A DNA stretch of 64,000 nt, taken from NCBI RefSeq assembly GCF_009914755.1, contig NC_060926.1; one strand, 5' to 3'. Position numbers and translations under genes: made by a program. Positions 9,921-63,719 of the stretch are shown here, piece by piece. Within the stretch, counting starts at the first letter, position 1. Each line of letters starts with the position of its first letter. The DNA comes from the human T2T-CHM13v2.0 reference genome, Homo sapiens. The notes below the pieces were generated by a model, which was given only the letters and a program-made list of their open reading frames with translations, did not search any database and was not told where the DNA came from.

Positions 9921-10388
9921 TTCTTTATTAATAAATTATATAATTCATTAAGTCTAATAACATGCTTTTGTTAAGAATCACGTCTAATAACACGCTGTTT
10001 TGATCTTTGCTTCTCACTACCCCTCAAGCCTCAGCCAAGACACTCCCACCTCCCCAAGGCCTTTCTTAATCTTTTTAGCTGGAGCTCTCTCCCTTGAATG
10101 GTTGAAGCAATCTATTTTTCTTTCTTTTTGGTGAAATGGAAGGCTTCCTGAGTCACATTCTAGTACATATAGTTATTTGTGTATATAATATTCGTTATTA
10201 AGAGTGTTTGCACTTGTTTGTATTTTAAGAACAGAGCTGTGAACACATAAACTATTCTTCAGATGAATATGTTATTGCTAAAAGTGTCTAGTTTCATAAG
10301 CAGAGCCACACTCTTAGTCTAGAGAGCTCCACTTGTTAAGTTGTAAACTGTGAAAGATCTGAGATGTGGCACTACTTGCAAGCTGGTA

Positions 10389-10725
<337 letters not shown>

Positions 10726-12338: not shown

Positions 12339-19548
<7,210 letters not shown>

Positions 19549-20399: not shown

Positions 20400-22620
<2,221 letters not shown>

Positions 22621-22624
22621 ATTA

Positions 22625-23056
<432 letters not shown>

Positions 23057-24092: not shown

Positions 24093-24650
<558 letters not shown>

Positions 24651-25633: not shown

Positions 25634-25923
25634 CTTTTTCTTTTTTTTGAGACAGAGTCTTGCCCCGTCACCCAGGCTGGAGTGCAGAGGCACGATCTCG
25701 GCTCACTGCAACCTCCACCTCCCAGGTTCAAGCAATTCTCTGTCTCAGCCCCCCAAGTAGCTGGGAAGGTGCCCTCCACCACACCTGGCTAATTTTTGTA
25801 TTTTTAGTAGAGACAGGGTTTCACCACCTTGGCCAGGCTGGTCTTGAACTCCTGACCTCGTGATCCATCTGCCTCGGCCTCCCAAAGTGCTTGGATTATA
25901 GGCGTGAGCCACCATGCCCAGCT
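25634..25923 (-). mobile_element. Alu (S-type)
   Basis: Reverse dimeric Alu. Confidence 0.95.
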
Positions 25924-27289
25924 TTTAAGATACTTCTTTCGGAAAAAATTTCCTGGAATAAGGGTAATCATATACCCTAACTCCAAACAGCAATGACAAC
26001 AACCAAAAAGCAAGCATTTATTACAACAGGCGAGGCCCTGAGTTGAGAGATTTATGTGCATTTCCTTATTAAAACCTTAAAGATCCTCTTATAAGATAAT
26101 TATTATTCCTACCTATAGGTGAGTAAACCTTGGTAAACAGAGAAGTTGCTCATAGTTACAAGGTTAGTGAAATCCATGTTCTTTAATAATTCTTTATATT
26201 GTTCCACAAAGAAAAGCATTTTCAATATTTAGTCCTTATGTTTTGGAAGCAGATGTAGGTCTTGAATTTCTAGGGTGGATGACTCCACATTCTTTCCTGT
26301 TTTATTGGTGGAAAACCAAACCAGAAATCATGATTTGAGAGGGTGTGTTCTTGGGCCATTCTATGTAATACAAACCTAAGTCATTTGGGGACTTTATTCA
26401 TACATATTTCCAGTATATTTTGGAAAAAGCATTGAATTGTACCTATTTTAAGGATAATATCAGTGACATTTAATTCATAATTGTATTATGAATTTTATTC
26501 AACTTCAGTGACAATTGCTATTTGATCTCAGCCTACAATCATAAATCTTGTTGAACTACTATTTCATGAACATTCCCTAACTAGCCACTCTTTGGTTAAA
26601 AATCTTAGCTGGGTTTAAGATATCTGTGTTAAAGAAGACTCCAAGTCAGGCATCTGGATTCTCTAAGAAGGGTTTTCCATTTTCTTGTATTTCAGGTTAA
26701 GGGAATTCTAAAGAATTACACATGAGCTAATTTGTTTTTTTAACTCTGATCACTTTAAAAAATTTGTAATTCTCCAAACGACCTAGATAAAATGCTTTGA
26801 TAAATATTGTCTATAACTGGAGAACTACTGATGTATAAAAATGTGTCTTTTTGGTTAGCTCTGCCTACCTCATTTGATTTAGCTTTGTGTTCTTTTGCTT
26901 TTACGTTTTCATGCTTTCTCCTTATTCTTCCAGGATTTCATCCAATTGGAAAGTTAAGTTCTTAGTACTGAGTGGCTAAAAAAGAAATATTTAAATCCAC
27001 CTAGACACTATGTACCAAATACACTCAACCATAACCACACCAGTAATGATGTCCTCTAATGGGGAGCACTGGTACCTGAGGATGAATCCCTTCTCCTTCC
27101 CTGGTGGAAGTGGAAAAGTATCAAGAATTTTCAGAAAGCTGCTGAAATTTGATGAAGGCTGTGTTCAACTTGTTGGCTGCCACTCTTGGTAAATAATAAA
27201 CAATATAGGCATATGTCTCTGAAAAGACTTCTCCAACTTAGGTTTTCCAAGCCCAGTAGCTTAATTTTTTATTTTGTTTTCCTGTTTTT

Positions 27290-27860
27290 TAAATTTAATT
27301 TTATTATTATTATCATACTTTAAGTTTTAGGGTACATGTGCACAAAGTGCAGGTTAGTTACATATGTATACACGTGCCATGCTGGTGTGCTGCACCCATT
27401 AACTTGTCATTTAGCATTAGGTATATCTCCTAATGCTATCCCTCCCCCTCCCCCCTCCCCCACAACAGTCCCCAGAGTGTGATGTTCCCCTTCCTGTGTC
27501 CATGTGTTCTCATTGTTTAATTCCCACCTATGAGTGAGAACATGCAGTGTTTGGTTTTTTGTCCTTGCGATAGTTTACTGAGAATGATGATTTCCAATTT
27601 CATCCATGTCCCTACAAAGGACATGAACTCATCATTTTTTTATGGCTGCATAGTATTCCATGGTGTATATGTGCCACATTTTCTTAATCCAGTCTATCAT
27701 TGTTGGACATTTGGGTTGGTTCCAAGTCTTTGCTATTGTGAATAGTGCTGCAATAAACATACGTGTTCATGTGTCTTTATAGCAGCATGATTTATAGTCC
27801 TTTGGGTATATACCCAGTAATGGGATGGCTGGGTCAAATGGTATTTCTAGTTCTAGATCC
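27290..27860 (-). mobile_element. 5'-truncated young L1PA (about PA2-3) 3' end
   Basis: L1 3'UTR and ORF2 C-terminus in reverse; 'caggttagttacatatg' and 'ttttagggtac'. Confidence 0.93.
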
Positions 27861-28544
27861 TGTTTTGTTTAACTACAAACCAAAGCTAAAGAAATGATAC
27901 AATGGTCTCATATTCAAGAATCTTATAAATTTTCTACAGAAAATATAAGGTGTAAAAGGAATGGAGAGTTCTTTAAGCAGCCTCAGAGAAATTATTACCT
28001 TGCGTCAAATTCAAAATGGATTGTCAACTATGTCATAATTTTCTGGAAAAAGCTGTTTAAATAACAATACTTCAGTGTTGCTTTGCATTTACACTGCTAG
28101 AATTATACCAGGCATCTAAAGGGCAGCCCTTCTAGGACACAGTGTCCTTGGCAAGATCTTTAGAAAAAGACAAAAAACAAAAACAGAAAGCAAAACTTGA
28201 AAGGAGAGACTCTATGGAGAAGAAAAATGAGAGGAGAGAAAAATGATGCCAAAATATTTAATGTCAAATGCCAAAACTAATATTTATTTGACTGTTTTCA
28301 AATGAATAAGTTGCATCATTTATTATTAATATTATTGCATCATATACTATTAATATTATTATTTGCTTAAAAATTGCCATGAATGAATTTTAAAAGGTAG
28401 GAAACCGTAGGAGATTAATTTTAATGGGAGGAATGATATCTTACTTCTTTGGTTATATAGATGAGTTTAGTTAGTTTTGGAGATTTTAAGAAGAGATTTA
28501 CTTTCAACTCTCTATCATAAATGCATATTAACCTAGGAGATCAT

Positions 28545-28650
28545 TTTTTTTTTATTACACTTTAAATTTTAGGGCACATGTGCACAACGTGCATGTTTGT
28601 TACATATGTATACATGTGCCATGTTGGTGTGCTGCACTCATTAACTCATT
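28545..28650 (-). mobile_element. Very short L1PA 3'-terminal fragment
   Basis: About 100 nt of L1 3'UTR between TCATTTTTTTTTTT repeats (probable TSD). Confidence 0.88.
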
Positions 28651-28784
28651 TTTTTTTTTTTTGGTCTTGAAAATTTAGTTCTTGCACCAATCAAATCCTT
28701 TATGTCTAAAATTTAGACTAAACACTGATTAAGACGCAAACTCCAGTCACATGCACCCTATGTAGTCTGAGACGATTCACTCAC

Positions 28785-31700
28785 CTATGGATTTGACAAG
28801 CGCTCACGGCTGTGTCTCCACCTCTCACCACATCTGGGATGTTTTTGTCATTCGAATGCCCTTCTGCTTCCTCTAGGAGGCTGCTTTTGGAAAGGAAGGG
28901 TTCAGGTTCCCCAGCACAGGCTTCTCTCTGATCTGTTTCAATCTGAATCAAAGGCACTTCCCTCGAGCAAAGTGATCGCCTTTTGTGGTTTATTGGTACA
29001 GGGTCCTGGCACGAGGAAGTTTCTTTTTTAGAATCTAAAGGGCTGTGGTTTGTAAGAGAAGCAGTTTTGCTCAAAGATGACACTGGGGGCTGTTTACATT
29101 CGGTAACAGAGTCTTTCCTCGGGCAATCGAGAGACTCCTGAACAAGCAGAGTTGGCCCACTGCACATCCTGCTCGCAGCTAATCTATTTGCACACTTCTC
29201 TGCTTGCGAGGGAGAGCCACCAGAAACAGGCTCAGTGTCAGCTTCCTCTGCATCATCCACAATGATTTTGTTCTTGCGCATGAGAGCCTCAATGGAGCTA
29301 GCCCACGTTTCATGAATTAACATGTTGGTGATGTGGTCAGTCCCACCTCTCCGATACAAGCAAGAGTCAGATTTGCAGAGACCGGATGAGGACGCGCTAC
29401 TGACCGGCTGCACGCTTAGGAAATCTTGTGGGCAGTTCTGAGCAAAGCCATCTAAAGAGTTGGCTTTGATGGGCACATTCACTGTCAGCCTGGAGCATGG
29501 GGATCTGCTGTCTGGCATGGACGACTGTCTGTGGCACACTGGGGATCGCAGAGAAGGAGACAGCAGGCCGGCTGTCCAATCCTGGCTGCTCCGTCTGGAG
29601 GAGGCACTTTCTCTGCTGTCTCTTTCGATGTCCCTCAGCATGTACCTGTAGAACTCCTCAGTGATGCTCTCTGTGCTGGACTGCTTAGAGGGACAGCTAG
29701 GCCTCACACTGAGGTGGTCACTTTTCCGGCACGCCTGTTGCATGGCTGAGTTCAGAATGCTGCTGGCGTTCTTGCCAGCATAGTAATCCAGCAGTAACTC
29801 AAATCCTCTCCCTTCATTTTCCATCTGGTTCACCATGAACCTGGAAAACTCATCGGTGATGCTCTCACAGCTCGACTGCTTGGAGACAGAGCTGGCCCTG
29901 CTGACCGGCTGGCTCAGCGTGCTCATTAAGCCCAGGCTGTTGACATAGGCCCTGGCCTCGGAGTCTTCCTCAGGAATGCTTTCGCAGCTGGAGGCCTTCA
30001 GCCGGCTCCACCTGTCGCCACTCAGTAACCGATTCCGGGGATAGCCCTGCGCCTGCCACATGCCGTCCACCATAGAGAACTCCGTTAGGTTCATGATCTT
30101 GGCTGCCACTTCATTGGCAAAAAGATTGACAGAATCTGGGACATCTTCAAGGTTCATGGACTCATCCACAACCCTGTTCATCAGCTTTTCTTTAAGCTCA
30201 GGGTGCTCGTCCGTCTTCCTCTTGATCTCACTGAGCCGGGGAGGCTTGTGTTTCCTCACAGCGGTCCCGCTCCCCTGGCTCTCTTTCTTCCTCTTCAAGG
30301 ATCGGCAGGGTACGTTGGGTGTCATCAGAAACTCACTCCCTCTTTTCCATGCACAAAACCAGGGTTGTTTTCCACTGGAGTTGTCAAGGCAAATCGCTGC
30401 AATTTCAGTTGCCATGGAGACGACCGTGTCTGCTAATTCTTCCGCAAAGTCTGTAATGCAGTAGATGTCTGGATGCTTTGTTTGAAGCGTGGATTGAGCA
30501 GGAAGCAGCAGGTCATCCCCTAACAAGGACAGGTTGACTTGAACTTCGTTGATGCGAGATGTGGCACAGTTGTACTTTTCTTGGGTGTTTGGGTGGATAC
30601 TCTCCTCAGCCTCCTGGGAACCACTTCTGGACCGGCTGACCGTTGGGGACCTTTGTCCTTCGGAAGAGGCTCTGCATTCATTCTCACTGTGATGAGGGCT
30701 TTTTGTATCCTCTCCTGCTATTCCTTTCAGATATATTTCCTTGGAGGATGTTGTAGCAGTTGAAGAATCGGGCACTCTGTGACTACGTGATAATTGTGAC
30801 TGCAGCGTGGGGTTCTTGAAGAGGCCTGGCCTCACTCCACCCTTGTCTTGTTTTGAATACATGCCATCCACAAGATTGTTGATGACAAGACTCGTGTTGT
30901 GTGAATTGCTAAGTGGAGAGCTGCTGGAGGATTCAGTGGCTTTTGTCCAAGCTTGACTAGCACCCGGATCAGATGGCTGGCAGCTTGGTTCTGTCTCCCT
31001 CCTTCTGATGGTCTCCTTAGAAAGGACAGCAGGACATTCACCAAGCCGTACAATATGACTCATCTTCTTGAACGTGAAGCATATCACATCTAAAAGCAGT
31101 TGATTTGTACTTTCCATTAAGGTGTCCAGAATTTCAGATGAATGCCTGTTGTCATTGGGGTCGATTATCATATTTTTGTGGTGAACTTCATCAATGGAAT
31201 GCCTCAGGATAACATTGGACAGGGTATGTGCCAGTTCATTCCTGACGACATTTTCTGAGCACAGGGTCTGAGACTTTGAAGCAGTTTCCATGATTCTCCT
31301 GTTCATGGAGTCCAGAAAGTCTCCAATGCTGCTGTAGGTATTAGGCCTTGTTAAAACCAGAGCAGCCTCCTTGAGCAATCCCTCGGCAATGGCTTCCTTG
31401 CCAAGCTCCATGCTTGCTAAACCACAAAGTGGGGGCATGGCTTCAGAAGCCTCAGCTGCAGGCGGGAGGCTACCACTTGGAGCCACTGAGCATGTCACCT
31501 CTTCTCTTTCACCCAGACCACAGACAGCCACGGCACTGGCCACCTGAGTCATGCCACACAAAGCAGATGGAAAGGAGTACTCATTGATGGAAGGTTCCTT
31601 GAGTCCTTGGGGTGCTTGAGTTTGCAGTGCACCACTGCTCCCTGGGGGAAAGTTCGAGACCACTTGCTCCATTTTGAGTCTTTCTGTGGCCTGTGGACTG

Positions 31701-32535
31701 GAAATAGTTCCAATCACAGTGGCTGCACAAGCTAACGCCACTTCTAGAGCACTCTGGGGTTGTCTGCTGGAGTTCTCTCCAGAGAGGATGCTTGAGGTTT
31801 CAACAGAGACTTCCATCTCAGGCCAGGAGGAGATGCCTGGCTGTGGGGCAGCATCACTGCCATCTGGACTCTGAACAACGACGATTTTGGGGAGCTCATT
31901 CCATGACCGAGAAACCACTGTATCTTTTGTGGAATAGCAACTGGGAAGCAGAGAACTTCCTACAGAAACACTGACTGCAGATTCCTGGGGTAATGTGGAC
32001 TGAGATTGAGATAATCTAATAAATGCATCCTGCAGCACGGATTCTGCTAAATTTGTAGCATACTTGCCAGTGGTGACTTCTCCATCTTGTCTAGGAGGGA
32101 GAGCGTTTCTTGTGTCTTCATGGTCTCCTGGGTTTAGGTTGCTTCTCTGCTCTGCCACAGCACATGCAGAAGGTACATCTTTATCCATCATGGAGAAATA
32201 AGCATCTTTTGGAATATACAGTGCCTGTGATTTTTCCATTTGACCTTTAAAAGCTTCTGAATGATAATAATGTGTGGCTTGTCTCCCATTCCCCACAGCT
32301 TCTCTTTTCCACTGTGATGGCTTGGCTGAGGGATCTAGACTCTGCAAGGCTGTGTTCTTTGTTAGGTTTTCTGGAGATCGTTCTGTTTTAATCAATGGTG
32401 TGGGATATTTGTTGATGTATTTGTCTTCCAAAGCATAAAGCCACTTTTCCTTGTTGCAATTCCATTCCACCTGGGTGGCTCCCTTTAGCTGTTTACTTTC
32501 CAAAACATTGGCTGAGACATTTATATTTTCATAAT
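28785..32535 (-). CDS. SPHKAP: SPHKAP giant coding exon (exon 7) with PKA regulatory-subunit-binding amphipathic helices
   Basis: 3,751 nt within the 1259-aa ORF; ctag|ATTAT...CATAG|gtgag, phase 1-2; AKAP helices DFAEELADTVVSMATEIAA and LFANEVAAKIMNL; SKQSSxESITxEF repeats. Confidence 0.98.
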
Positions 32536-32629
32536 CTAGTGAGGAGAAAATGAGGGGCACTATTACTTTTTGGATAGCAGGTTACCATAAGTCTTAAGTA
32601 ATAATTACTTTCTAAAAATAAAACATCAA

Positions 32630-33114
32630 TAAAGACACATGCACACATATGTTTATTGCAGCACTATTCACAATAGCAAAGACTTGGAACCAACCCAAAT
32701 GTCCATCAATGATAGACTGGATTAAGAAAATGTGGTACATATACACCATGGAATACTATGCAGCCATAAAAAAAGGATGAGTTCATGTCATTTGTAGGGA
32801 CATGGATGAAGCCGGAAACCATTATTCTGAGCAAAGTATCACAAGGACAGAAAACCAAACACCGCATGTTCTCACTCATAGGTGGGAATTGAACAATAAG
32901 AACACTTGGATGCAGGGTGGGGAACATCACACACTAGGGCCTGTTGTTGGCGGGGGGAGTGGGGAGGGCTAGCATTAGGAGATATACCTAATGTAAATGA
33001 CAAGTTAATGGGTACAGCACACCAACATGGCACATGTATACATATGTAACAAACCTGCATGTTGTGCACATGTAGCCTAGAACTTAAAGTATAATAAAAA
33101 TAAAATAAATAAAT
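32630..33114 (+). mobile_element. 5'-truncated L1PA (about PA4-6) 3' end
   Basis: From 'aaagacacatgcacac' to the A-tail; degenerate TSD AAAAATAAAACATCAA / AAAAATAAAGCATTGA, consistent with CpG decay. Confidence 0.93.
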
Positions 33115-34089
33115 AAAAATAAAGCATTGACTTTTTTTCCCCCTTCAAGAATAACAGTTTGAATGGTTTTCCTCAAGAAAAATGAATCTGAAAAGGCTTT
33201 CAAATTTCATGATAGAATGCCACCCAACAAAATGGCTTTCCATATGGGATACAAATGCAAGTAGGAGATGTTTGAGGGCTGAGGGCTGCCACCATTTTTC
33301 AGGGGAAAGCAACCCAGACAGTTGCATCTTAGAGCTTCCCAGTGGGTACAGAAGGAGAAGGGAGGATGTTTACGGCAACCTCAGTAGTGGGACTTGCTGC
33401 AAAGATTTGTTCTAAAGTTTGCATGAGACTTGTCCCAGGGACAGTGGCAACAACATCTGGGGTACCCCTTCCTCTGTGGCTAAAAGTGGGGAGGAGGAAC
33501 GCATTGTTCATTGAGCTCTGTGAATGGGTCAACAGGAAGAGCTGAATAAATGGGTACTAAGCACTTTCCTGGATTATCTCTTTCTGTCTTCACAAAAATC
33601 ATTAGCTATAGGCATGATCGTACTCCCAAATTAGACAAACAAACTAGGCTAGGAAAGATTAGATAACTGGCGCCAGATCTCACAGCCTCAATGTGGCAGT
33701 GCTGGGATTCAAATCCAGGCTGGTCCAACTTGGCTTCAACTAATATATGGCTTTTATGGAAGTCTTAGGGAAGTTAACTTTCCTCCCAGTGATAGCCTCC
33801 ATCTCTTGGCAGGCAGGAGGATTTTCCTTTAAAGTACACAAATTCCCTTCAGTATGCCTAAGGCATCTTTTGGGAGTCTGGATCCATCCAACCATTAAGT
33901 CCGCTAAGTGAGTTTGTCAGTATCTTCACCAGTGTTCTCATATCCTCCTTCCTTCCTTCCTTAAAATTCAGCAAGTAAAGACTGTGATGTGTCAGCCAAA
34001 CTGATGTGGCCTGGAACTTTTCTGAAATCTCACCAAGACATTTTTATACGGGGACTAATTTCAGGAGGCACTAATTGGAAAGTTCTCAC

Positions 34090-34345
34090 CGTTCCTAGAT
34101 TCATCCACCTCGCTTTCCTCCTCCAAGTGCTCAGAAGCGGTGAGAAAGTCTTCCTCGATTGAAGATAAGGAACAGTTCGTGTCATCCTCCAGTTTCAAGA
34201 TGTTTGTTTCCAGGTGGAGCTGTCGCTCCTGCACCAGTTCCAGACCAATCAGAAATTTGTTGATTTCAAAGATGATGCAGTTGGTACTGTTTGGTCTGTT
34301 CCCTCTTGCACATTGGACCAAGCAGATATCTGGCAGCCAAGGGCA
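34090..34345 (-). CDS. SPHKAP: SPHKAP coding exon (exon 6), CPWLPDICLV...VDESRN; contains FFAT-like EEDFLTASEH
   Basis: 256 nt, tag|TGC...AACG|gtgag, phase 0-1; overlaps ORF 34061..34321. Confidence 0.95.
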
Positions 34346-34597
34346 CTAAAAGTGGAGAGAAAAGAAGGCATTTATTCAAAAGGGAAAATAAAAGACTATT
34401 GCCTCTGAGCTTTCCTTTTCCACCAAGCTCTCCTGTTAATAGGAGTGGGGACCTTTAAAATATTTGAAATGTCTTCTGGAATTATATTAATAAACTGCTT
34501 GAAAAAAATTCAAGTGATGTTTGGAACACAAGGTACCTAGGAGAAAGCCTGACTTAGGGAAAAATAGATCGGCTGTATCACATATTTTAATTTCCCT

Positions 34598-35158
34598 TGG
34601 TCAAAGCAAAAATTCAACTGGGTAAAGTTAAACAGGCAAAGAAGATTTTTATTTGAGGCTATTAAAATAGGGAAGAGAGGCCAGAATTAAGTTGGACCAC
34701 AACTCCACTGAAACAAAAGGCAATAGGGTTTTTAAGGGCTAGAGTGATGGGGGAGATCATAGGTCATCTGTGTTTGATAATTGGCTTTACCCAAAGAAAC
34801 AGTAAACTTTCTTGTATCTTTATGACAGGAGGTAGTTTTACAACCTGGAGCAAGATGCCCAGTGAAGTTAGGTTCTCATGCTCCCATAAAGACTGGGGAC
34901 TTTAAGGGAACTATCTTCCTTGATGATTACATTTCAAAGAGACAGCTCCCAGGTCCTTGAGAAAGACATTTCTGGGTATAAAGCTGGCAAGAGGCTTTTA
35001 CAAAAGGATTTACATTTCAAAAAGGCACAGGAGGAATTTACAATTATAAATTTTCTAGATTAAATGCTCTAAGAAAAGGGAAGTCAGGGTCTAGAGTCAG
35101 GAAGGAGCCTGTCTAAATTTTGGTCAAGCTGAAGGGAATGTCAACGCTGTCTTGGTTA
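34598..35158. mobile_element. ERV1-type solo LTR (MER31/MER67-like)
   Basis: 'ttaaacaggcaaagaagatttttatt...ttgatgattacatttcaaag' resembles these families; family call from memory. Confidence 0.5.
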
Positions 35159-39928: not shown

Positions 39929-40070
39929 CTGGGAAAAGAGGGCAAAAATAGTACGTTAAAGTCAAAAACCTGACTGTCTTTTTAGAAGAAAGAAAGCAGG
40001 AATCAGTTGGGGCAAATGCTTTGGGAGTCTTCCACATCTTAGACAGTTTGGCATAGAAATAGTCATTTCA

Positions 40071-40389
<319 letters not shown>

Positions 40390-40865
40390 TCACTTTTGAG
40401 CCTCCAAATAGCTCTCCAACACCCTGCTCAGCTTCCCACTGGTCACAACAAATGCCCGCTTCCTTTCATGGCCCAACATACTAAAAAAGTCTGCTTGTAT
40501 TAGAGCCAATAGAACAGTTACAACAAAATCTTCAAGTTTATAAGGTGTTATCAGATCTCATGAAATAGGAAAAATAACTTTTTATGCTCTAAGCCTCTGT
40601 TTGTAATTGCAATAAATACTTTTCTCTATTTTCTCCTTTCCTCTTCTCATTTTTGCTCCTTTTCTCTACCCACTTTTAATGTAGTGCATAATAAGCCAGG
40701 ACTCCTCTTTGCCACATTGTTTTAGTTCATTTTACTTTATTTAACCTTGTTATACAATTTGCCTCTTTGTTAGCTATGTTGGATAAATGTCTGAATGGGT
40801 TAGTCTAAAAACAATAGCCATAATATTAAACAATAAATCTGAACAACAGTGAAACATTGTTATAA

Positions 40866-41222: not shown

Positions 41223-42618
41223 AATTTAAATCCCAAATATACCACATAGTTAGAAAACTACTATGAGCATTCAGATGGGGTTGGAGAAAAGAAAGTTAAA
41301 GTTTTCAAAGAGGTTAGCTATGTTTTTGAAAGATAAAAAGACTTTTGTTGGGTAGGGAATGGGTGGGGACCATCACTAGTGGGTTGGACAGACAGCATGA
41401 TTAATACTTTGAGGTGAGAAAGTGTAACGCTGTCAAGCCACAGGGAATAAGAGAATCTGACTGCAGGCAGGCCTAGAGGAAGGGAAGTGTTGGTAATTAG
41501 GTCTAGTTAGGTTTGGGCTAAATGAGAAAATGCAAATGAGGTTCTCTAATACTTTGCTAGCAATCATCCAAAGGTTTTTATTTCTAACTAGTTGATTTGA
41601 TGTTACAAAACGGAGAACATTAATTACCTGGAATTTAGTTAGACATTTGAACTTTCAGATGCCTGCAAATATATGGGGCTTTCTGATCTTAGTTACTTTT
41701 TGGGATCATGGTTTCTTAGTCCATCTTTTTTCTTTTTGAGGTTAAAAAAATAATGGAAAGGTTTTGAGAAAGATCTTAAAAACTGAAATAGAAGTGTAAA
41801 GATCACTACTGCTTTAGTCCCAAAGAATAGGAGATTTCTTCAAGTTTCATGGACTCACAAGATCCTTGAAGTGCAACCCTAGGATGCACCATCTGCCTGT
41901 TAAGAATAACTTGATGGGCATTAGGGGGAAGAAAGGGCATGAAAGGACCCACACTCCCATTCAGAAGTTCTTTTTGCTCTGGGTTAATAAGATGGAAAAA
42001 TAGGAAGAAATTGGCATGAGTCCCTTTGCAGACAGTGCAAATGGAAGCATAAATAGAAGATGGAGCTCAGAAGCAGTTCATGATCTAGGGAAGTTTGATA
42101 ATATTCATATAATAATTGAAACTTTGCCCTTGGAAAACTAGTTCAATATCCATCAGTCCTCAGGGACTTTTAATAACATGCAGCTGGCACTGGTGGTATT
42201 GAATTGATGAGAAGATTTTCCATTCACCTTAAAGAAAGGCCCATTACCTTGCTCCTGGGCATGACAAAGCTTTTATTATCATGCATCACAGTGGCAGAGG
42301 GCAAAGCAGAGATCAGAGAGCAAAGAAAGGCCTCTATAGTAGCAATTTGTCTGCCCTCCAACATTTTCTTTAGTTTTCTGAGGATGAACTCTCTTTTCAC
42401 CCATTTTAGGCTACTATATGAAACTCTACCTACACCTGGAGGACACTCTCCACATTTGCTAGCTGAACCAAGATAAAAACAAAGCAAGACACAAACCAAC
42501 TTCTTGCTTATACTTCTCATGCACATCTTGCAATATCTTCATAGTAGGGGATGATCCAGGCTTCTTAAGGCCTGATGTGCATGCAATGTGGGGAGGCCTT
42601 CTTTAAGAAATGGAATAA

Positions 42619-42985
<367 letters not shown>

Positions 42986-43719: not shown

Positions 43720-45386
43720 TGCCCAGGCTTGATTAGGCAAACAAAAATGCCAGGAAGCTCGATCTGGGTGGAGCCCACCACAGCTCAAGGAGGCCTGCCT
43801 GCCTCTGTAGGCTCCACCTCTGGGGGCAGGGCACAGACAAACAAAAAGACAGCAGTAACCTCTGCAGACTTAAATGTCCCTGTCTGACAGCTTTGAAGAG
43901 AGTAGTGGTTCTCCCAGCATGCAGCTGGAGATCTGAGAATGGGCAGACTGCCTCCTTAAGCGGGTCCTTGACCCCCGAGCAGCCTAACTCGGAGGCACCC
44001 CCCAGTAGGAGCAGACTGACACCTCACACGGCCAGATACTCCTCTGAGACAAAACTTCCAGAAGAACGATCAGGCAGCAGCATTTGCAGTTCACCAAGAT
44101 CTGCTGTTCTACAGCCACCGCTGTTCTGTAGCCACCGCTGCTGATACCAAGACAAACATGGTCTGGAATGGACCTCTAGCAAACTCCAACAGACCTGCAG
44201 CTGAGGGTCCTGTCTGCTAGAAGGAAAACTAACGAACAGAAAGGACATCCACACCAAAAACCCTTCTGTACATCACCATTATCAAAGACCAAAAGTAGAT
44301 AAAGCCACAAAGATGGGGAAAAAACAGCAGAAAAACTGGAAACTCTAAAAAGCAGAGCGCCTCTCCTCCTCCAAAGGAACGCAGCTCCTCACCAGCAACG
44401 GAACAAAGCTGGACGGAGAATGACTTTGATGAGCTGAGAGAAGAAGTCTTCAGACGATCAAACTACTCCGAACTACAGGAGGAAATTCAAACCAATGGCA
44501 AAGAAGTTAAAAACTTTGAAAAAAAATTAGATGAATGGATAACTAGAATAACCAACGCAGAGAAGTCCTTAAAGGAGCTGATGGAGCTGAAAGCCAAGGC
44601 TCGAGAACTACATGAAGGATACAGAAGCCTAAGGAGCTGATGCGATCAACTGGAAGAAAGGGTATCATTGATGGAAGATGAAATGAATGAAATGAAGCGA
44701 GAAGGGAAGATTAGAGAAAAAAGAATTAAAAAAACGAACAAAGCCTCCAAGAAATATGGCATTATGTGAAAAGACCAAATCTACGTCTGATTGCTGTACC
44801 TGAAACTGACGGGGAGAATGGAACCAAGTTGGAAAACACTCTGCAGGATGTTATCCAGGAGAACTTCCCCAATCTAGCAAGGCAGGCAAACATTCAGATC
44901 CAGGAAATACAGAGAACGCCACAAAGATACTCCTCGAGAAGAGCAACTCCAAGATAATTGTCAGATTCACCAAAGTTGAAATGAAGGAAAAAATGTTAAG
45001 GGCAGCCAGAGAGAAAGGTCGGGTTACCCACAAAGGGAAGCCCATCAGACTAACAGCTGATCTCTTGGCAGAAACTCTACAAGCCAGAAAAGAGTAGGGA
45101 CCAATATTCAACATTCTTAAAGAAAAGAATTTTCAACCCAGAATTTCATATCCAGCCAAACTAAGCTTCATAAGTGAAGGAGAAATAAAATACTTTACAG
45201 ACAAGCAAATACTGAGAGATTTTGTCACCACCAGGCCTGCCCTACAAGAGCTCCTGAAGGAAGCACTAAACATGGAAAGGAACAACCGGTACCTGCCACT
45301 CCAAAAACATGCCAAAATGTAAAGACCATCGAGGCTAGGAAGAAAACTGCATCAACTAACGAGCAAAATAACCAGCTAACATCATG

Positions 45387-49214
<3,828 letters not shown>

Positions 49215-52200
49215 ACCATGAGAACACATGGGCACAGGAAGGGGAACATCACACTCTGGGGCCTGTTGTGGGGTGGGAGGAGGGGGGAGGGATAGCATTA
49301 GGACATATACCTAATGCTAAGTGACGAGTTAATGGGTGCAGCACACCAACATGGCACCTGTATACATATGTAACAAACCTGCACATTGTGCGCATGTACC
49401 CTAAAACTTAAAGTATAATAATAAATAAATAAATAGATAAAATATTTTTCAGCTTATTGTCAAAATCAGTGGGAAACTACTGTACAGTTTCTTTCATATA
49501 TGAGTTGTTATAGGCATACTCACTCTTTTTAGTACCTTTACAGTTTTGTACTCTAAAGACATAATTTGGATTGATTCTCTTTGGTGTGATTTCCATGAAA
49601 AAAAATGCATCATGCATTTCTGATTTTCAATGCTGTACTATCAAATGAATGCCCACAAGGAGAAAATTTCTGGTTGACTGGGCATCAAAGAGGACCCAAT
49701 CTTGCACTTAAGTTTTACATGTCTGATGATTGGAAGAATTTTACACAGAATAGCTTCTGATATGTAAACCTTGTTTCCTCTCACTGCCTACATATTTTTG
49801 TATTGGAAACTGTAGGATATGCTCACACCATCCCTGACCTGGCACATTCATGTTGCAATGTCTGCTTGAGTTACCACTCTTGATGGTAGAAGCATTCCTG
49901 GAAGTCATTCCTATATGTGGATGGCTAGCAATCACTTAACTATATACGAAAGTGACCTGAAGCTACATAAATATATCTCATGTAAACAGAACCCCCCTCA
50001 ATTTCCCTTAAGCCAGAGCCCAATAACACCTGTGGTCATCCAATGACTCTCAGTTTGCGGGGAGATAAGAGGTAGTAGGAGTCGAAATGGAAAGAGATAA
50101 GCATAGTTAAAATATCTTACTTTGAATATTTTACAAAAACACATAACCATGTGAATACATTGATAGGCCCTGTCCCAAGGGCCTTGAAACTGGGGCCTAT
50201 GCACATTAACAGCCCTGAAACCTAAATTTTGGTAGTTTTACAGTAAATCCACTTCTTGATGAAATAGACAATGTGACTGGATTGCTCTTAGCAAGTTTTC
50301 AATCTCTACAAGTTTGGGCTATTAATTGAGATTTAAGCAACCACTAATGCTGAAGTCCAAGTAGAGAATACAGGACCAGCCTCTGTCTAGTAGAGCTGGG
50401 GAGTGGTGAGCCTGGATTAGGAGGCTTTGATGAGGAGACTGAACGTTTGATGAGGAGATCGAATGTCTTCAAAGTGCTTGGTGTCAATGCTGGGTGCTGA
50501 GAAGACAAACAATACAAGGCATTGTTTTTGCTCTTGGGAGTTATGATCTGTCTGAAGGCAGGACATGTCCTTAAAGTGACAGAAACATCATGGGCCACGT
50601 GTGCTGGAGAAGGGAGTTGGGAGAACTGGATCAATCATGAATGGTATCCAGGAGAAGGCTGAATTTGAGGTGAGCTTGGAGGTCAGGGGACATGTTTACA
50701 GTGTTATTACAGGAGGAAACTTTTGGTAGTGGGAAGCTGAAATAAAGTTTTTATTTTTTTTTGCAGGGGCAGTTAGGGTGAATGTTATGTGTGACTAAAA
50801 TGATAAAACCTGGAAGATTCTGCATTACGGTTGCATGAGCTGGAGAGAAACCTGTCAGTGGGGAGGCTAGGGCTGCATGCTGGAGCCACCAGCCAATGGA
50901 GAACAAGGCATAATTACTGTGCTCTTATTGCATTCTCTGTAAAATGCCTGCATGAGCAAATCCAAATATGCCAAATGACCTAGGAAAGGATTTTTTTAAG
51001 TATGTATTTTTACATAATTATCCTTTTTTCTTGAACATAGAAGTAGTGGATTTTCCTGCAGTCTTCACATCCTGTTAGTTCATGAGGGCAGGCCCTGTCC
51101 ATCACTGGATTCCCAGTGCTCAGCATGGTGCCAGGCATCTGGCAGATGCTCAATAAATTCTCGTTGGTGAGTGCAGGTGACAGGTGTACAAGAAAGGGAC
51201 ATTTGTAATAATCATTTCCCTTATTTATAGAATGAATTCCAATGAATGTAGTCAATAAACAGTTTTCTTCCCATAAAGGTACAGGGAATACGTACAGAAG
51301 CTACAGGAGAATTAAATGAGCTAATAAACCAGCTATTGGCTACCATTTCCAGTACTTAGATTGGCTTCGTTTTCTCACAAAGAAGCATTTGCTAAAAAAC
51401 AGACAAAGACAAAATGTTGAGAATCATAATTGGTAATAAAGACCCATAAAAGGTGCTAACATTTTTCTTGGAATGGCAGCTCCTTTCTCTTCACATAAAA
51501 TACATTTCTTTTGTGTGTTTGTGCACGTGTCCTTACTGAGACCATCTGCAGACATACTTAGCTGAAGCAGATGGAAACACACATCATCCCGAAAGAACAC
51601 AAGCACTTCTTCTCTTGCTTCCTGAACAGAGCTAATCTTGTGGTTGTACTCCACCTTTTACACTCTAATGCTGCTCTTCTATCACTATTATGGTTTTTAA
51701 ACAAAACATTGCAGGAATAAATGTCACTGAGAAGATGATGCCACCTTATGATTTTGACTTTAATAAAATATTCCTCACAACTACTTACATACAATAAAAT
51801 TTGAATGTCTATAGGAAATACACAGTTTTTTTTAGTATTATGGGTTATTAGCCAAGTAATCACAGTGATTACTCTTATTTATGACTCTCTTTTCATAAAT
51901 GAAGTTCCATGTAGGCATTTGTAAAACTAAAATTTTGTTGTGAAATTTTATTAACTAGTGATATAAAATATATTTTTGTGAAAAGCTAATGTGAGGAAGA
52001 GGATGACATGAAAATCTAGTATTCAATACAAAACACAGTCATTTTTAAGTGAATTGTAATTCACAGCAACTTTTGCGAGGCAACTGTATTTTCTAAACAG
52101 TTTTATTTTGACAGATAAAGTCAGACAAAATCAGTGCTTTTATATAAGATAAAAATGAGTTTGACTTTTTGAATTAAACACATAGAAAGAACTGATGATG

Positions 52201-53747: not shown

Positions 53748-54060
53748 GGCTGGGCACAGTGGCTCACACCTGTAGTCCCAGCACTTTGGGAGGCCGAGGC
53801 AGGTGCATCACAGGAATTCAGGAGTTCAAGACCAGCCTGGCCAACATGGCGAAACCCTGTCTCTACTAAAAATACAAAAATTAGCCAGGCGTGGTGGTGC
53901 GTGCCTGTAGTCCAGCTACTCAGGAGGCTGAGGCAGGAGAATCGCTTGAACCCAGGAGGCGGAGGAGGTTGCAGTGAACAGAGATCGTGTCACTGCTCTC
54001 CAGCCTGGGTGACAGAGTCAGACTCTGTCTCAAAAAAAAAAAAAAAAAAAGAAAAAAGAA
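53748..54060 (+). mobile_element. Alu (S-type)
   Basis: Dimeric Alu; TSD GAA(G/A)ACAGTTCT. Confidence 0.95.
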
Positions 54061-55696: not shown

Positions 55697-56018
<322 letters not shown>

Positions 56019-57183
56019 TAGTTTTCATTGATGTTAAAAAGCTAATCAAATAATTGACAAAAATCTTCCTCAGGTACAATGAGACAACCTAACTTTGACT
56101 ATGGTGTAAGAAAAAATGCCACAGACATGATAAATTGAACATAATATTGCATGCTTTACAATTTTGTAGAATTTTATGTTTTAACTCTTCCACTAAGCTT
56201 CCATTAAAGACTTTTTTCACCTTTAAAGTAATAAAACATAATAACATCTAGTGGTTGCTTTCTCCCTTTTCTGAAAGTCATACACATTTGCACAGAGAAA
56301 ATATGAAAAAAGAAAAGGTAGAAAGTCATGTTTGTAATCTGAACAGCTCAATTATTTTAGAATAGATAAAAGATAATTTATATACTTAGAATCATGGTGA
56401 ATAAGTGATAGTGAACTTAATTTAAAAATACAAATAGTTTATCTAAACCAAACATCTAACATTCATCTCTCATATGTTTGACAACCAAACTACTAAATAA
56501 CTCCAAACTTAACCTCTCCAAGAAGCCTCAGGTATAATTGAGCAAACACTTTGTACATCTTTAATAATTAAGCATGCTGCAATCTCATTGGTATAGGTAA
56601 AATTTATTAAAAATCCCAACAACTCAAAGCAATGACTAAAGGCACAACTTGAGTGACTCTACATAGGGAAGTAGAAAAATATTTAGAGGATTTAGTCCTA
56701 AAATATAGTTGCAAATGCAGGAGAGGTGCTTCTTTTTTTAACGGAATTATCCAGATTGAATATCTATATTAATAAAAGACATCAAGTGGTTCTTAGTTTC
56801 ACGGGTACTCTAAGAACCACTCTATTTGGCCTGCTCCAGGTCTGCATATGAAAACTTTAGCCCAAGGCATGTATCTGAATTACTATCCCTATAGATTGGA
56901 TGCTTTAGGAACTCATTAATTTAAATCTTCTAACAGACTGCCAAGTGTTGAGAGGTAACTCACTTTTCAAAAAAAATGACCATTAAATTCAAGCCTTTGA
57001 AAAATGGAATTCTGCAAACTATAGTTGACACATAATGAATAAATACATAGAAAAAGTAATTGGAGAAAAACAAAACAAAATACAAGAGGGAACATCTATT
57101 ACAGTGAGTAGGATAACAACTAGTTTTTCATATTTGTTTCCTTTGACAATGATGCTAATTAGTTACTAAAATAGAATCTGGAG

Positions 57184-58152
57184 AGTGAACAGGCAATCTA
57201 CAGAATGGGAGAAAATTTTGGCAACCTACTTATCTGACAAAGGGCTAATATCCAAAATCTACAATGAACTCAAACAAATTTACAAGAAAATAACAAACAA
57301 CCCCATCAAAAAGTGGGCAAAGGATATGAACAGACACTTCTCAAAAGAAGACATTTATGCAGCCAAAAAACACATGAAAAAATGCTCATCATCACTGGCC
57401 ATCAGAGAAATGCAAATCAAAACCACGATGAGATACCATCTCACACCAGTTAGAATGGCAATCATTAAAAAGTCAGGAAACAACAGGTGCTGGAGAGGAT
57501 GTGGAGAAATAGGAACACTTTTACACTGTTGGTGGGACTGTAAACTAGTTCAACCATTGTGGAAGGCAGTGTGGCGATTCCTCAGGGATCTAGAACTAGA
57601 AATACCATTTGACCCAGCCATCCCATTACTGGGTATATACCCAAAGGATTATAAATCATGCTGCTATAAAGACACATGCACACGTATGTTTATTGCAGCA
57701 CTATTCACTATAGCAAAGACTTGGAACCAACACAAATGTCCAACAATGATAGACTGGATTAAGAAAATGTGGCACATGTACACCATGGAATACTATGCAG
57801 CCATAAAAAATGAAGAGTTCATGTCCTTTGTAGGGACATGGATGAAGCTGGAAACCATCATTCTCAGCAAACTATCGCAAGGACAAAAAACCAAACACCA
57901 CATGTTCTCACTCATAGGTGGGAATTGAACAATGAGAACACATGGACACACGAAGGGGAACATCACACAGCGGGGACTGTTGCGGGATTGGGGGAGCGGG
58001 GAGGGATAGCATTAGGAGATATACCTAATGCTAAATGACGAGTTAATGGGTGCAGCACACCAGCATGGCACATATATACATATGTAACAAACCTGCACAT
58101 TGTGCACACGTACCCTAAAACTTAAAGTATAATAATAATAAAAAAAAGAAAA
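57184..58152 (+). mobile_element. 5'-truncated L1PA (about PA3)
   Basis: ORF2 C-terminal 247 aa open; perfect 16-bp TSD AAAATAGAATCTGGAG at 57168-57183 and 58153-58168. Confidence 0.96.
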
Positions 58153-59554: not shown

Positions 59555-59919
<365 letters not shown>

Positions 59920-61892: not shown

Positions 61893-62882
61893 CAATAATT
61901 TTGGCTTTTATTTCAGATTTAAGGAGTGCATGTGCACCTGGGCTTACTGCATGACACTAAGGTTTGGGGTATGAATCTTATCACCCAGCTAGTGAGCATA
62001 AGACCTAATAGGTAGCTTTGTGAGCCCTTGGACTCCCACCTCTCTTCCTGCTCTAGCAGTCCCCAGATCTTCCCATTTTTTATGTCCATATGTACCCAAT
62101 GTTTAGCTCTTACTTGTAAGTGAGAACAAGTGGTATTTGGTTTTATGTTCCTGCCTTAATTCACATAGGATAATGACCTCCAGTTGCACCCATGTTGCTG
62201 CAAAAATATAATTTCATTGTTTTTTTATGGCTGCATAGCATTCCATGGTATATATGTACCACATTTTCTTTATCCAGGGTAAACAGAAAACCTACAGAAT
62301 GGGAGAAAATCTTCACAAACTCCAACATCCAACAAAGGTCTGATATTCAATATCTATAAGAAACTGCAATAACTCAACAAGAAAAAACAAATAACCCCAT
62401 TAAAAAGTGGGCAAAGGATATGAACAGACACTTCTTAAAAAAACACGTACAAGTGGCCCACAAACATATGAAGAAATGATCAACATTACTAATTCTCACA
62501 GACATGCAAATCAAAACCACAATGAGATACCATCTCACATCAGTCAGAATAGCTATTATTAAAAGGCCAAAAAATAGCAGATGTCAGGGCTTGAAGGAAA
62601 GGAACACTTAGAAACTGTTGATGGGAAAAATACATTAATTCAGCCACTGTGAAAAGCAGTTTGGAGGTTTCTCAAATAATTTAAAACTACCATTCAACCC
62701 AGCAATCCCATTGCTGAGTATAAACCCAAAGGAAAATAAGTCATTCTGCCACAAAGACACATGCACTTGAATGTTCACAGCAGCACTATTCACAATATTT
62801 CCTTTACCTACAATTTGTTCTTACCGATTTAATTTTTACCATATGCGGATGGAATCACCCTAGGTGCTCATCAATGGTGGAT
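61893..62882. mobile_element. Old L1PA (about PA13-16) with 5' inversion: minus 3' end to about 62276, plus segment 62277-62882
   Basis: The plus segment ends '...catcaatggtggat', exactly where the minus segment begins ('tggataaagaaaatg'), which is twin-priming geometry. Confidence 0.8.
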
Positions 62883-62884
62883 TT

Positions 62885-63491
<607 letters not shown>

Positions 63492-63719
63492 ACCCACTCC
63501 ACTTTCTCTACCTCTTCTCAGAATTGTTATATCACAATTTTGGGCAAATGAATATTTAGTGTTTGCCTTGTTGTGATCAGGTAATTATTGTTCAGTAGGG
63601 ACTACATTGTATATTGTAATATTTCCTTTACCTAAAACTTGTTTTTATTGATTTAATTTTTGCCTTATGCAGCAGATTGACTTATTGTTCATTCAATATT
63701 CATTCTTTTCTATATCCAT

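What the first reader, a model, noticed from the sequence alone, without database searches (positions are those of the whole stretch)
27290..33114. Inverted L1 3' ends bracket the 3.75-kb exon: an L1-built scaffold for a giant SPHKAP circular RNA
Seen: a plus-strand L1PA 3' end starts about 95 nt from the exon 7 acceptor (32630-33114). Two minus-strand L1PA 3' ends lie about 135 nt (28545-28650) and about 0.9 kb (27290-27860) beyond its donor. They cover the same L1 segment in opposite orientation, so the pre-mRNA could form a duplex of roughly 470 bp that juxtaposes the splice sites. Known: long exons with reverse-complementary flanks back-splice, usually through Alus, and a cardiomyocyte-enriched circSPHKAP has been reported. 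Inference: three independent primate L1 insertions drive or boost this circle. The junction would read CATAG|ATTATGA (H-R-L-stop), so a translated circle would give an AKAP fragment that keeps the PKA-binding helices but lacks the FFAT-like motif and C-terminus. The exon 6-to-8 skipped product is frameshifted and stops at 7903-7901, making it an NMD candidate.
Basis: partly seen in the sequence, partly recalled or inferred. Interest (0 to 1): 0.8.

Follow-up and report, generated by a model that had tools for sequence, protein, structure and literature searches.

The report
Inverted L1 ends flank circSPHKAP exon
The 3.75-kb SPHKAP exon that forms a published heart-enriched circular RNA is flanked by oppositely oriented L1 retrotransposon tails that could pair and favour circle formation, a plausible but untested case of a well-known mechanism.

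Summary
SPHKAP exon 7 (28785-32535, minus strand, 3751 nt, AG/GT sites) has a plus-strand L1 3' end 93 nt from its acceptor. Minus-strand L1 3' ends lie 138 nt and 921 nt beyond its donor. The long pair is 90% complementary over 496 nt and co-folds into 473 intermolecular pairs. L1 identity is shown by matches to human ORF2p residues 1191-1237.

The circle is already published. circSPHKAP spans exactly 3751 nt, is the sixth most abundant circle in iPSC-cardiomyocytes, and is the only SPHKAP circle in that list.

What I add: L1 copies are the only reverse-complementary matches between introns 6 and 7. Many other inverted pairs, including a 5.5-kb L1 pair, bracket exons 4-7, yet no exon 4-7 circle is listed.

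The causal role of the L1s remains inference. Long-exon effects and QKI dependence are live rivals. Translation of the circle has no support beyond an open frame. I found no paper linking circSPHKAP to L1. This is a new member of a known kind, of moderate-to-low interest.

The parts
32627..33113 (+). Upstream arm. An L1 3' end (ORF2 C-terminal codons with one frameshift, 3' UTR, A-rich tail) in intron 6, antisense to SPHKAP, 93 nt from the exon 7 acceptor.
   Evidence: BLAST span 32629-33119. ORF2p residues 1191-1237, E 2.5e-26. Frames. Bounds taken from the candidate target-site duplication.
32613..32626 (+). Candidate left target-site duplication of the upstream L1 (TAAAAATAAAACAT). Its partner lies at 33114-33127 (TAAAAATAAAGCAT).
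   Evidence: 13 of 14 positions match. The sequence is A-rich, so this is only moderately convincing.
28785..32535 (-). SPHKAP exon 7, 3751 nt. This is the body of the published circSPHKAP.
   Evidence: AG/GTGAGT sites and one open frame. Length equals the published circle.
28543..28646 (-). Short downstream arm. The last roughly 100 nt of an L1 3' UTR with its own tail, sense to SPHKAP, 138 nt from the donor. It pairs with 33003-33106.
   Evidence: 104 nt, 90% complementary. Co-fold gain -98 kcal/mol.
27286..27863 (-). Long downstream arm. An L1 3' end of about 578 nt, sense to SPHKAP, 921 nt from the donor. It pairs with 32629-33119.
   Evidence: 90.1% over 496 columns. 473 intermolecular pairs. 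ORF2-like frames. Candidate target-site duplication, 10 of 11.
13967..14440 (-). A further complementary partner of the upstream arm, deep in intron 7. It is the 3' end of a roughly 5.5-kb L1 at 13972-19457.
   Evidence: 91.2% over 475 columns. 5.5-kb span.
28452..28475 (-). The only bipartite Quaking-type motif (ACUAAC N14 UAAC) within 2.5 kb of the donor. Intron 6 has none.
   Evidence: Pattern scan. The motif definition is recalled, not taken from a call.
34090..34345 (-). Exon 6. It holds the phospho-FFAT-like motif EEDFLTA about 20 codons before its end, outside the circle.
   Evidence: Translation. F212/T214 of mouse SPHKAP reported as critical in PMC10460453.
7901..7903 (-). TGA reached by the frameshifted exon 6-to-8 product. 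It ends 1 nt before the end of exon 8.

Best explanation
SPHKAP exon 7 is the known heart-enriched circular RNA circSPHKAP. In the pre-mRNA, an antisense L1 3' end lies 93 nt upstream of the acceptor. It can base-pair with sense L1 3' ends 138 nt and 921 nt downstream of the donor, and with a third about 14 kb further on. The resulting duplex of about 100 to 470 bp loops out exon 7 and brings its donor and acceptor together. This would favour back-splicing, as inverted Alu pairs do elsewhere.

Shown: the anatomy, the pairing potential, the identity of the circle, and the absence of any other complementary pair between these two introns.

Inferred: that the pairing forms in cells and raises circle output. 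I think the L1 pairing is most likely a contributor rather than the sole cause. The very long exon, the 20.7-kb downstream intron and RNA-binding proteins such as QKI probably act alongside it.
For: 1. The circle's length and gene match. The published span is 3751 nt and the exon is 3751 nt.

2. Between intron 6 and intron 7, 4 of 5 BLAST matches are inverted and all 5 involve the L1 copy in intron 6: 27286-27780, 13967-14440, 28543-28646, a weak 13119-13259, and one direct 41-nt A-rich match. No other family appears.

3. Intron 6 has no internal inverted repeat. The downstream arms have no strong inverted partner inside intron 7; the only one is a 29-nt A/T-rich match. Pairing across the exon is therefore not out-competed within either intron.

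4. The duplex is strong: 473 intermolecular against 22 intramolecular pairs and a net -518.6 kcal/mol. Exact runs reach 58 nt.

5. All 36 inverted matches at E<=1e-10 between sequence upstream and downstream of exon 7 were listed. 3 of them involve intron 6, and all 3 are L1. The other 33 start in intron 3 and would bracket exons 4-7 or more. Even so, the full 5602-circle list of Lei et al. 2018 holds SPHKAP once, as the exon 7 span. Acceptor choice therefore follows the intron 6 element or the exon itself, not the bulk of repeats.

6. A mouse-heart circle table that lists Slc8a1, Hipk3, Ryr2 and Ttn has no Sphkap entry. This is a weak hint of species specificity.
Against: There is no direct evidence that the duplex forms or matters. 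I had no RNA-seq, no editing data, no deletion experiment and no mammalian genomes for presence/absence mapping.

Inverted orientation of two nearby L1 pieces is expected half the time.

Single-exon circles generally come from unusually long exons (abstract of PMC6376117). Exon 7 might therefore circularise without any pairing.

QKI knock-down lowered circSPHKAP (PMC5845222), so a protein factor is involved. It also lowered the other 4 of the 5 circles tested, so the effect is not specific to this circle.

The downstream arm is more complementary to the intron 3 copies (94.1% and 93.4%) than to the intron 6 copy (90.1%), yet no exon 4-7 circle is listed. Complementarity alone does not predict the outcome.

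The absence from the mouse table could reflect low Sphkap expression or that pipeline's filters.
Confidence: 0.55

Rival explanations
1. The L1s are bystanders. Exon 7 circularises because it is very long and strongly exon-defined, because it is followed by a 20.7-kb intron that delays the competing linear splice, and because cardiomyocyte RNA-binding proteins (QKI and perhaps others) bridge or stabilise the flanks.
For: Single-exon circles derive from unusually long exons and long flanking introns (abstract and passages of PMC6376117). The Lei et al. list contains other spans of 3.3-3.5 kb, such as FAT1 and TET2. QKI siRNA lowered circSPHKAP. One bipartite QKI-type motif lies 310 nt downstream of the donor. 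L1 orientation is a 1-in-2 event.
Against: The upstream intron is short (1554 nt), which is atypical for circle flanks. It holds no ACUAAY motif at all (0 found), so a QKI bridge across both introns is not supported by the sequence. ACUAAY is not enriched in the window either: 0.33 per kb against about 0.87 per kb expected from base composition. The only repeat in intron 6 is exactly the complementary one, placed 93 nt from the acceptor.
Confidence: 0.33
2. The circle forms mainly through a lariat. Exon 6 is first spliced to exon 8, and the excised lariat carrying exon 7 is then spliced internally to give the circle. The frameshifted linear by-product is degraded. L1 pairing may or may not help this loop-out.
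For: The skipped product is out of frame (3751 mod 3 = 1). It stops at 7903-7901, upstream of four further exon junctions, so it would be hard to see. Complementary matches are reported to promote back-splicing and exon skipping together (PMC8330042 and PMC13019027; I saw only titles and abstract starts in the listings).
Against: No exon 6-8 transcript is in the annotation table given with the finding. I had no read data to look for one. This pathway is not exclusive of the main explanation.
Confidence: 0.1
3. The circle is translated from the first in-frame AUG (exon 7 nt 297) into a 1153-residue protein ending in ...CQIH-RL. This protein would keep the type I PKA-anchoring region but lack the FFAT-like VAP-binding motif and the C-terminus.
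For: One open frame of 1153 codons crosses the junction and stops 7 nt beyond it. The FFAT-like motif is in exon 6. A mouse construct without the FFAT region (residues 820-1658) still co-clusters with RI-alpha but loses VAP co-localisation (PMC10460453). Such a product would therefore have a distinct behaviour.
Against: There is no evidence of ribosome association, internal initiation or a junction peptide in any paper opened. The frame is open only because it is the normal coding frame. The positions of the PKA-binding helices are recalled from memory, not taken from a call. Pfam gave no domain for the exon 7 protein.
Confidence: 0.04

Closest known systems
Inverted-Alu (IRAlu) or reverse-complementary-match driven exon circularisation in human genes. 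Described in passages of PMC6376117 and PMC9148063 and in the abstract start of PMC8938519 (listing); the classic examples are recalled.
   Same: Complementary repeats in both flanking introns, close to the back-spliced sites. Across-exon pairing is not out-competed by within-intron pairs. The splice sites are canonical.
   Different: The arms are L1 3' ends (ORF2 C-terminal codons plus 3' UTR), not Alu. The potential duplex is longer, at about 470 bp and 90% complementarity. The upstream intron is only 1.55 kb. Dependence on the arms is untested.
[quoted passage not shown] 2018, as cited in PMC6965350; passage seen).
   Same: LINE-type elements in opposite orientation flank circularised exons.
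   Different: That system is in a plant and uses a different LINE lineage, and its evidence is population-level. Here there is one human locus with no functional test.
Published circSPHKAP (Lei et al. 2018, PMC5845222; Cerina, PMC7746713; medulloblastoma screen, PMC6308054).
   Same: Same gene and same 3751-nt span. Validated with divergent primers and Sanger sequencing, enriched in heart, and also listed in a cerebellum/medulloblastoma screen as lower in tumours.
   Different: None of these papers discusses flanking repeats. Lei et al. has 0 occurrences of 'Alu', 'complementary', 'LINE-1' or 'repeat'.
QKI-promoted circular RNAs (as cited in PMC5845222 and PMC6376117).
   Same: QKI knock-down lowers circSPHKAP.
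   Different: QKI-type motifs are found on the downstream side only.

Membership tests
Exonic circular RNA made by back-splicing | A head-to-tail junction of annotated splice sites has been observed experimentally. | tested here: met
   From the literature, not from reads. The hg19 span is 228881121-228884872 (3751 nt), with RT-PCR using divergent primers and Sanger sequencing. The exon is 3751 nt.
Exonic circular RNA made by back-splicing | Canonical AG acceptor and GT donor at the two ends of the circularised exon. | tested here: met
   AG before 32535 and GTGAGT after 28785 on the minus strand.
Circular RNA driven by reverse-complementary matches (IRAlu-type) | Reverse-complementary sequences in the upstream and downstream flanking introns. 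| tested here: met
   90.1% over 496 columns, 91.2% over 475 and 90.4% over 104. 473 intermolecular pairs.
Circular RNA driven by reverse-complementary matches (IRAlu-type) | Across-exon pairing is not out-competed by pairing within a single intron. | tested here: met
   No inverted repeat inside intron 6. The only inverted partner inside intron 7 is a 29-nt A/T-rich match.
Circular RNA driven by reverse-complementary matches (IRAlu-type) | Circle output falls when an arm is deleted or mutated and returns with compensatory changes. | not testable with these tools
   Needs a minigene or genome editing.
Circular RNA driven by reverse-complementary matches (IRAlu-type) | Evidence that the duplex forms in cells (A-to-I editing clusters or duplex-mapping reads). 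| not testable with these tools
   No RNA-seq or editing database is on hand.
LINE-1 3' end fragments | Coding similarity to the C-terminus of ORF2p, followed by a 3' UTR and an A-rich tail. | tested here: met
   ORF2p residues 1191-1237 (E 2.5e-26) and 1181-1275 for a sister copy. Tails were read. Pfam gave no match for these short pieces.
LINE-1 3' end fragments | Target-site duplications flank each insertion. | tested here: inconclusive
   13 of 14 (upstream copy), 10 of 11 (long downstream copy) and 15 of 16 in a T-run (short copy). All are low-complexity sequence.
L1PA (primate-specific L1 subfamilies) | Diagnostic subfamily positions against a repeat library. | not testable with these tools
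   No Dfam or RepeatMasker library is available. Near-identity to the human ORF2p sequence in HMMER's alignments and pairwise K2P distances of 0.06-0.10 among five copies fit a primate L1 lineage only indirectly.
QKI-bridged circular RNA | QKI response elements in both flanking introns. | tested here: not met
   0 ACUAAY motifs in intron 6. One bipartite motif at 28475-28452 in intron 7.
Translated circular RNA | An open frame spans the junction, together with evidence of ribosome engagement. | tested here: inconclusive
   A frame of 1153 codons crosses the junction. Ribosome or peptide evidence was not available.

The most novel reading that the evidence does not exclude
L1 insertions in the primate lineage completed an inverted pair around SPHKAP exon 7 and so created one of the most abundant cardiomyocyte circular RNAs. 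That circle is translated into an FFAT-less, C-terminally truncated type I PKA anchor that holds PKA-RI away from VAP/ER contact sites. This would be a retrotransposon-built, lineage-specific modifier of compartmentalised cAMP signalling in heart and brain.
Probability: 0.04. Interest if true: 0.8.

Novelty: new member of a known kind. Interest (0 to 1): 0.33.

Why it matters
circSPHKAP is proposed as a cardiomyocyte marker and ranks among the most abundant circles in human heart cells, yet nothing in the papers I could open explains why it forms. If the L1 arms are responsible, this would be a clean human example of back-splicing set up by L1 rather than Alu. It would come with a simple test: delete about 490 bp next to the acceptor. 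It would also give a datable evolutionary origin. Circle formation, or the linked exon 7 skipping, would cost SPHKAP mRNA, so the arms could also tune the level of a type I PKA anchor. If the arms are bystanders, the locus is an ordinary long-exon circle.

Tried and rejected
- Pfam on three translated L1 pieces and on the 1249-residue exon 7 protein gave no family. L1 identity was obtained instead from solved ORF2p structures.
- Rfam at gathering threshold on 26000-35000 gave 0 matches.
- Search for a non-L1 complementary pair across exon 7: none.
- Search for complementarity between exon 7 and either intron: none.
- QKI bridge model: motifs were found on one side only.
- Mouse or rat circSphkap in print: the hits for 'Sphkap' with circRNA terms were linear-gene mentions (PMC6704709, PMC9329895, PMC13606584). 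The supplements of PMC7648966 mention SPHKAP only as a miRNA target.
- Search for a human L1-driven circle in print. (2, 12, 25 and 17 papers) showed none by title. I opened PMC6965350, PMC9148063, PMC8938519 and PMC12267954; they gave only the maize example and Alu statements.
- Coordinate search found only PMC6308054.
- An age estimate from divergence was left rough. The upstream copy has 22 private differences in about 474 columns, against 8-12 for the four other copies. I did not build any consensus.


Full report
**The claim**

It proposed that these could zip into a duplex of about 470 bp and so build or boost a very large circular RNA. It added several consequences read from the sequence.

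The repeat finder reports four inverted arm pairs:
- 27445-27797 with 32612-32964 (353 nt, 89%)
- 27285-27413 with 32994-33122 (129 nt, 88%)
- 27415-27455 with 32953-32993 (41 nt, 90%)
- 28543-28646 with 33003-33106 (104 nt, 90%)

BLAST merges the first three into 32629-33119 against 27286-27780, 90.1% identical over 496 columns. The gene is on the minus strand, so I folded the two intronic pieces as pre-mRNA. They form 473 intermolecular and 22 intramolecular pairs, with a net gain of -518.6 kcal/mol over the separately folded pieces. The duplex-only energy is -771.2 kcal/mol, against -164.6 to -197.3 for five shuffles. Exact complementary runs reach 58 nt, and seven are 20 nt or longer.

- 93 nt from the acceptor to the upstream L1
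- 138 nt from the donor to the short L1
- 921 nt from the donor to the long L1

**The elements are L1**

Pfam gave nothing for the short translated pieces. A search of solved structures did. 32634-32777 translates to a match with residues 1191-1237 of human LINE-1 ORF2p (E 2.5e-26). An intact sister copy at 57641-57925 matches residues 1181-1275 up to the stop (E 5.9e-58). The upstream copy continues after one frameshift to the ORF2 stop, then 3' UTR and an A-rich tail.

The three copies near exon 7 look like separate insertions:
- They are truncated at different points. The long one reaches 33 codons further 5' than the upstream one. The short one holds only the last roughly 100 nt of the 3' UTR.
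- Each has its own tail.
- Each has a candidate target-site duplication: 13 of 14, 10 of 11, and 15 of 16 in a T-run.

The subfamily name L1PA could not be tested without a repeat library. Pairwise K2P distances among five copies in the window are 0.062-0.102. The intron 6 copy has 22 private differences in about 474 columns, against 8-12 for the others, so it is probably the oldest. If so, the inverted pair was completed when the downstream copies landed.

**The exon and its read-outs**

- Exon 7 is 3751 nt, with AG before it and GTGAGT after it, and one open frame (0 stops, against 60 and 68).
- The back-splice junction reads CAT AG|A TTA TGA, that is H-R-L-stop. The longest frame on the circle has 1153 codons, starts at nt 297 of the exon and ends 7 nt past the junction.
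- Joining exon 6 to exon 8 shifts the frame and stops at TGA 7903-7901.
- The phospho-FFAT-like motif EEDFLTA lies in exon 6. Its F and T correspond to F212 and T214 of mouse SPHKAP, which PMC10460453 reports as needed for VAP co-localisation (passages).
- That both PKA-RI anchoring helices lie in exon 7 fits two things. The mouse 820-1658 construct retains RI binding, and helix-like stretches are visible in P0001. The published residue ranges themselves are recalled, not taken from a call.

**The circle is already known**

- Cerina (PMC7746713, passage) gives circSPHKAP as chr2:228,881,121-228,884,872. It reports the circle as detected only in heart among the ENCODE tissues examined, at rank 62 of 9281.
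- Lei et al. 2018 (PMC5845222; passages, supplement search, and part 1 of supplement 2) list the same span at 0 RPB in iPSCs and 2420 RPB in iPSC-cardiomyocytes. It is the sixth row of the table. They validated it with divergent primers and Sanger sequencing, found it enriched in fetal heart, and saw it fall after QKI knock-down.
- PMC6308054 lists chr2_228020156_228016406 as an exonic circle lower in medulloblastoma than in normal cerebellum.
- PMC7648966 places circSPHKAP_1 in the top 30 of normal human heart.

**What the sequence adds**

I compared intron 6 (1554 nt) with intron 7 (20.7 kb). All five matches involve the L1 in intron 6. Four are inverted: 27286-27780, 13967-14440, 28543-28646 and a weak 13119-13259. 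Neither intron has complementarity to exon 7, and intron 6 has no internal inverted repeat. Inside intron 7 the downstream arms have only a 29-nt A/T-rich inverted partner.

I then listed all 36 inverted matches (E<=1e-10) between everything upstream and everything downstream of exon 7 in the window. Three involve intron 6, and all three are L1. The other 33 start in intron 3. They include a 5.5-kb L1 pair (43889-49421 with 13972-19457, 91.8% over 5540 columns) and many pairs of about 300 nt. Those would bracket exons 4-7 or more.

Even so, 'SPHKAP' occurs once in the full circle table of Lei et al., as the exon 7 span. Acceptor choice therefore follows either the intron 6 element or the exon itself.

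**Evidence that cuts the other way**

- Complementarity does not rank the outcome. The downstream arm matches the intron 3 copies better (94.1% and 93.4%) than the intron 6 copy (90.1%).
- Inverted orientation of two neighbouring L1 pieces is a coin toss.
- Long exons circularise often (abstract of PMC6376117).
- QKI matters experimentally. However, it lowered all five circles tested. The sequence shows a QKI-type motif only downstream (28475-28452) and none in intron 6.

**Species comparison**

No mammalian genome or read data were available. One indirect check was possible. The circle table of PMC6376117 includes mouse heart and lists Slc8a1, Hipk3, Ryr2 and Ttn, but it has no Sphkap entry. 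PMC7648966 says circSPHKAP_1 was not in the top 100 of earlier human or mouse heart studies. Both are weak evidence.

**Is the L1 idea in print?**

- Of 17 papers holding 'circSPHKAP' and 12 holding SPHKAP plus circRNA, I opened five that discuss the circle. None mentions flanking repeats.
- Lei et al. has no occurrence of 'Alu', 'complementary', 'LINE-1' or 'repeat'.
- Searches pairing circRNA with LINE-1 or L1PA terms gave no human L1-driven circle by title. The four papers I opened gave the maize LINE1-like pairs and general Alu statements.
- Subscription papers, PDF supplements, bioRxiv supplements and circRNA databases were not visible.

**Verdict**

The anatomy is real and the circle is real and already published. 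The L1 pairing is a reasonable mechanism, specific to this locus, of a well-known kind. I put 0.55 on a measurable contribution, 0.33 on the L1s being bystanders to a long-exon, protein-assisted circle, and about 0.04 on translation. It is a new member of a known kind, of moderate-to-low interest.

Noticed in passing
window 43889-49421 (+) and 13972-19457 (-): Two nearly full-length L1 copies in intron 3 and intron 7 are inverted and 91.8% identical over 5540 columns. They bracket exons 4-7, so the pre-mRNA could form a 5.5-kb double-stranded region. No exon 4-7 circle appears in the one full list I could search.
   Followed up: partly
window 40070-40391, 42616-42970, 53748-54057, 55708-56039, 59570-59884, 63192-63492 (intron 3) against 2005-2308, 10385-10692, 12587-13056, 20686-20985, 22635-22937, 24250-24572, 25635-25922: Many inverted repeat pairs of about 300 nt (75-85% identity; presumably Alu, family not verified) link intron 3 with intron 7 and beyond. 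Introns 4, 5 and 6 contribute none of them.
   Followed up: no
window 13967-14440, 27286-27863, 28543-28646 (-) and 32629-33119, 48872-49442, 57586-58146 (+): All three young L1 3' ends downstream of exon 7 are sense to SPHKAP, and all three upstream are antisense. By chance this would be about 1 in 32, but it was noticed post hoc. An older, 77%-identical piece at 62119-62277 breaks the pattern.
   Followed up: no
window 29611-29704 and 29806-29899 (exon 7): A 94-nt internal direct repeat (72% identity, 195 nt apart) encodes two copies of a serine-rich motif, SSCESITDEFSRFM and SSTESITEEFYRYM, 65 residues apart in SPHKAP. Its function was not looked into.
   Followed up: no
window 28556, 27305, 27273 (minus strand, proximal intron 7): AATAAA hexamers sit at the ends of the sense-oriented L1 tails just downstream of exon 7. 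They might serve as premature polyadenylation sites giving exon 7-terminated transcripts. This was not tested.
   Followed up: no
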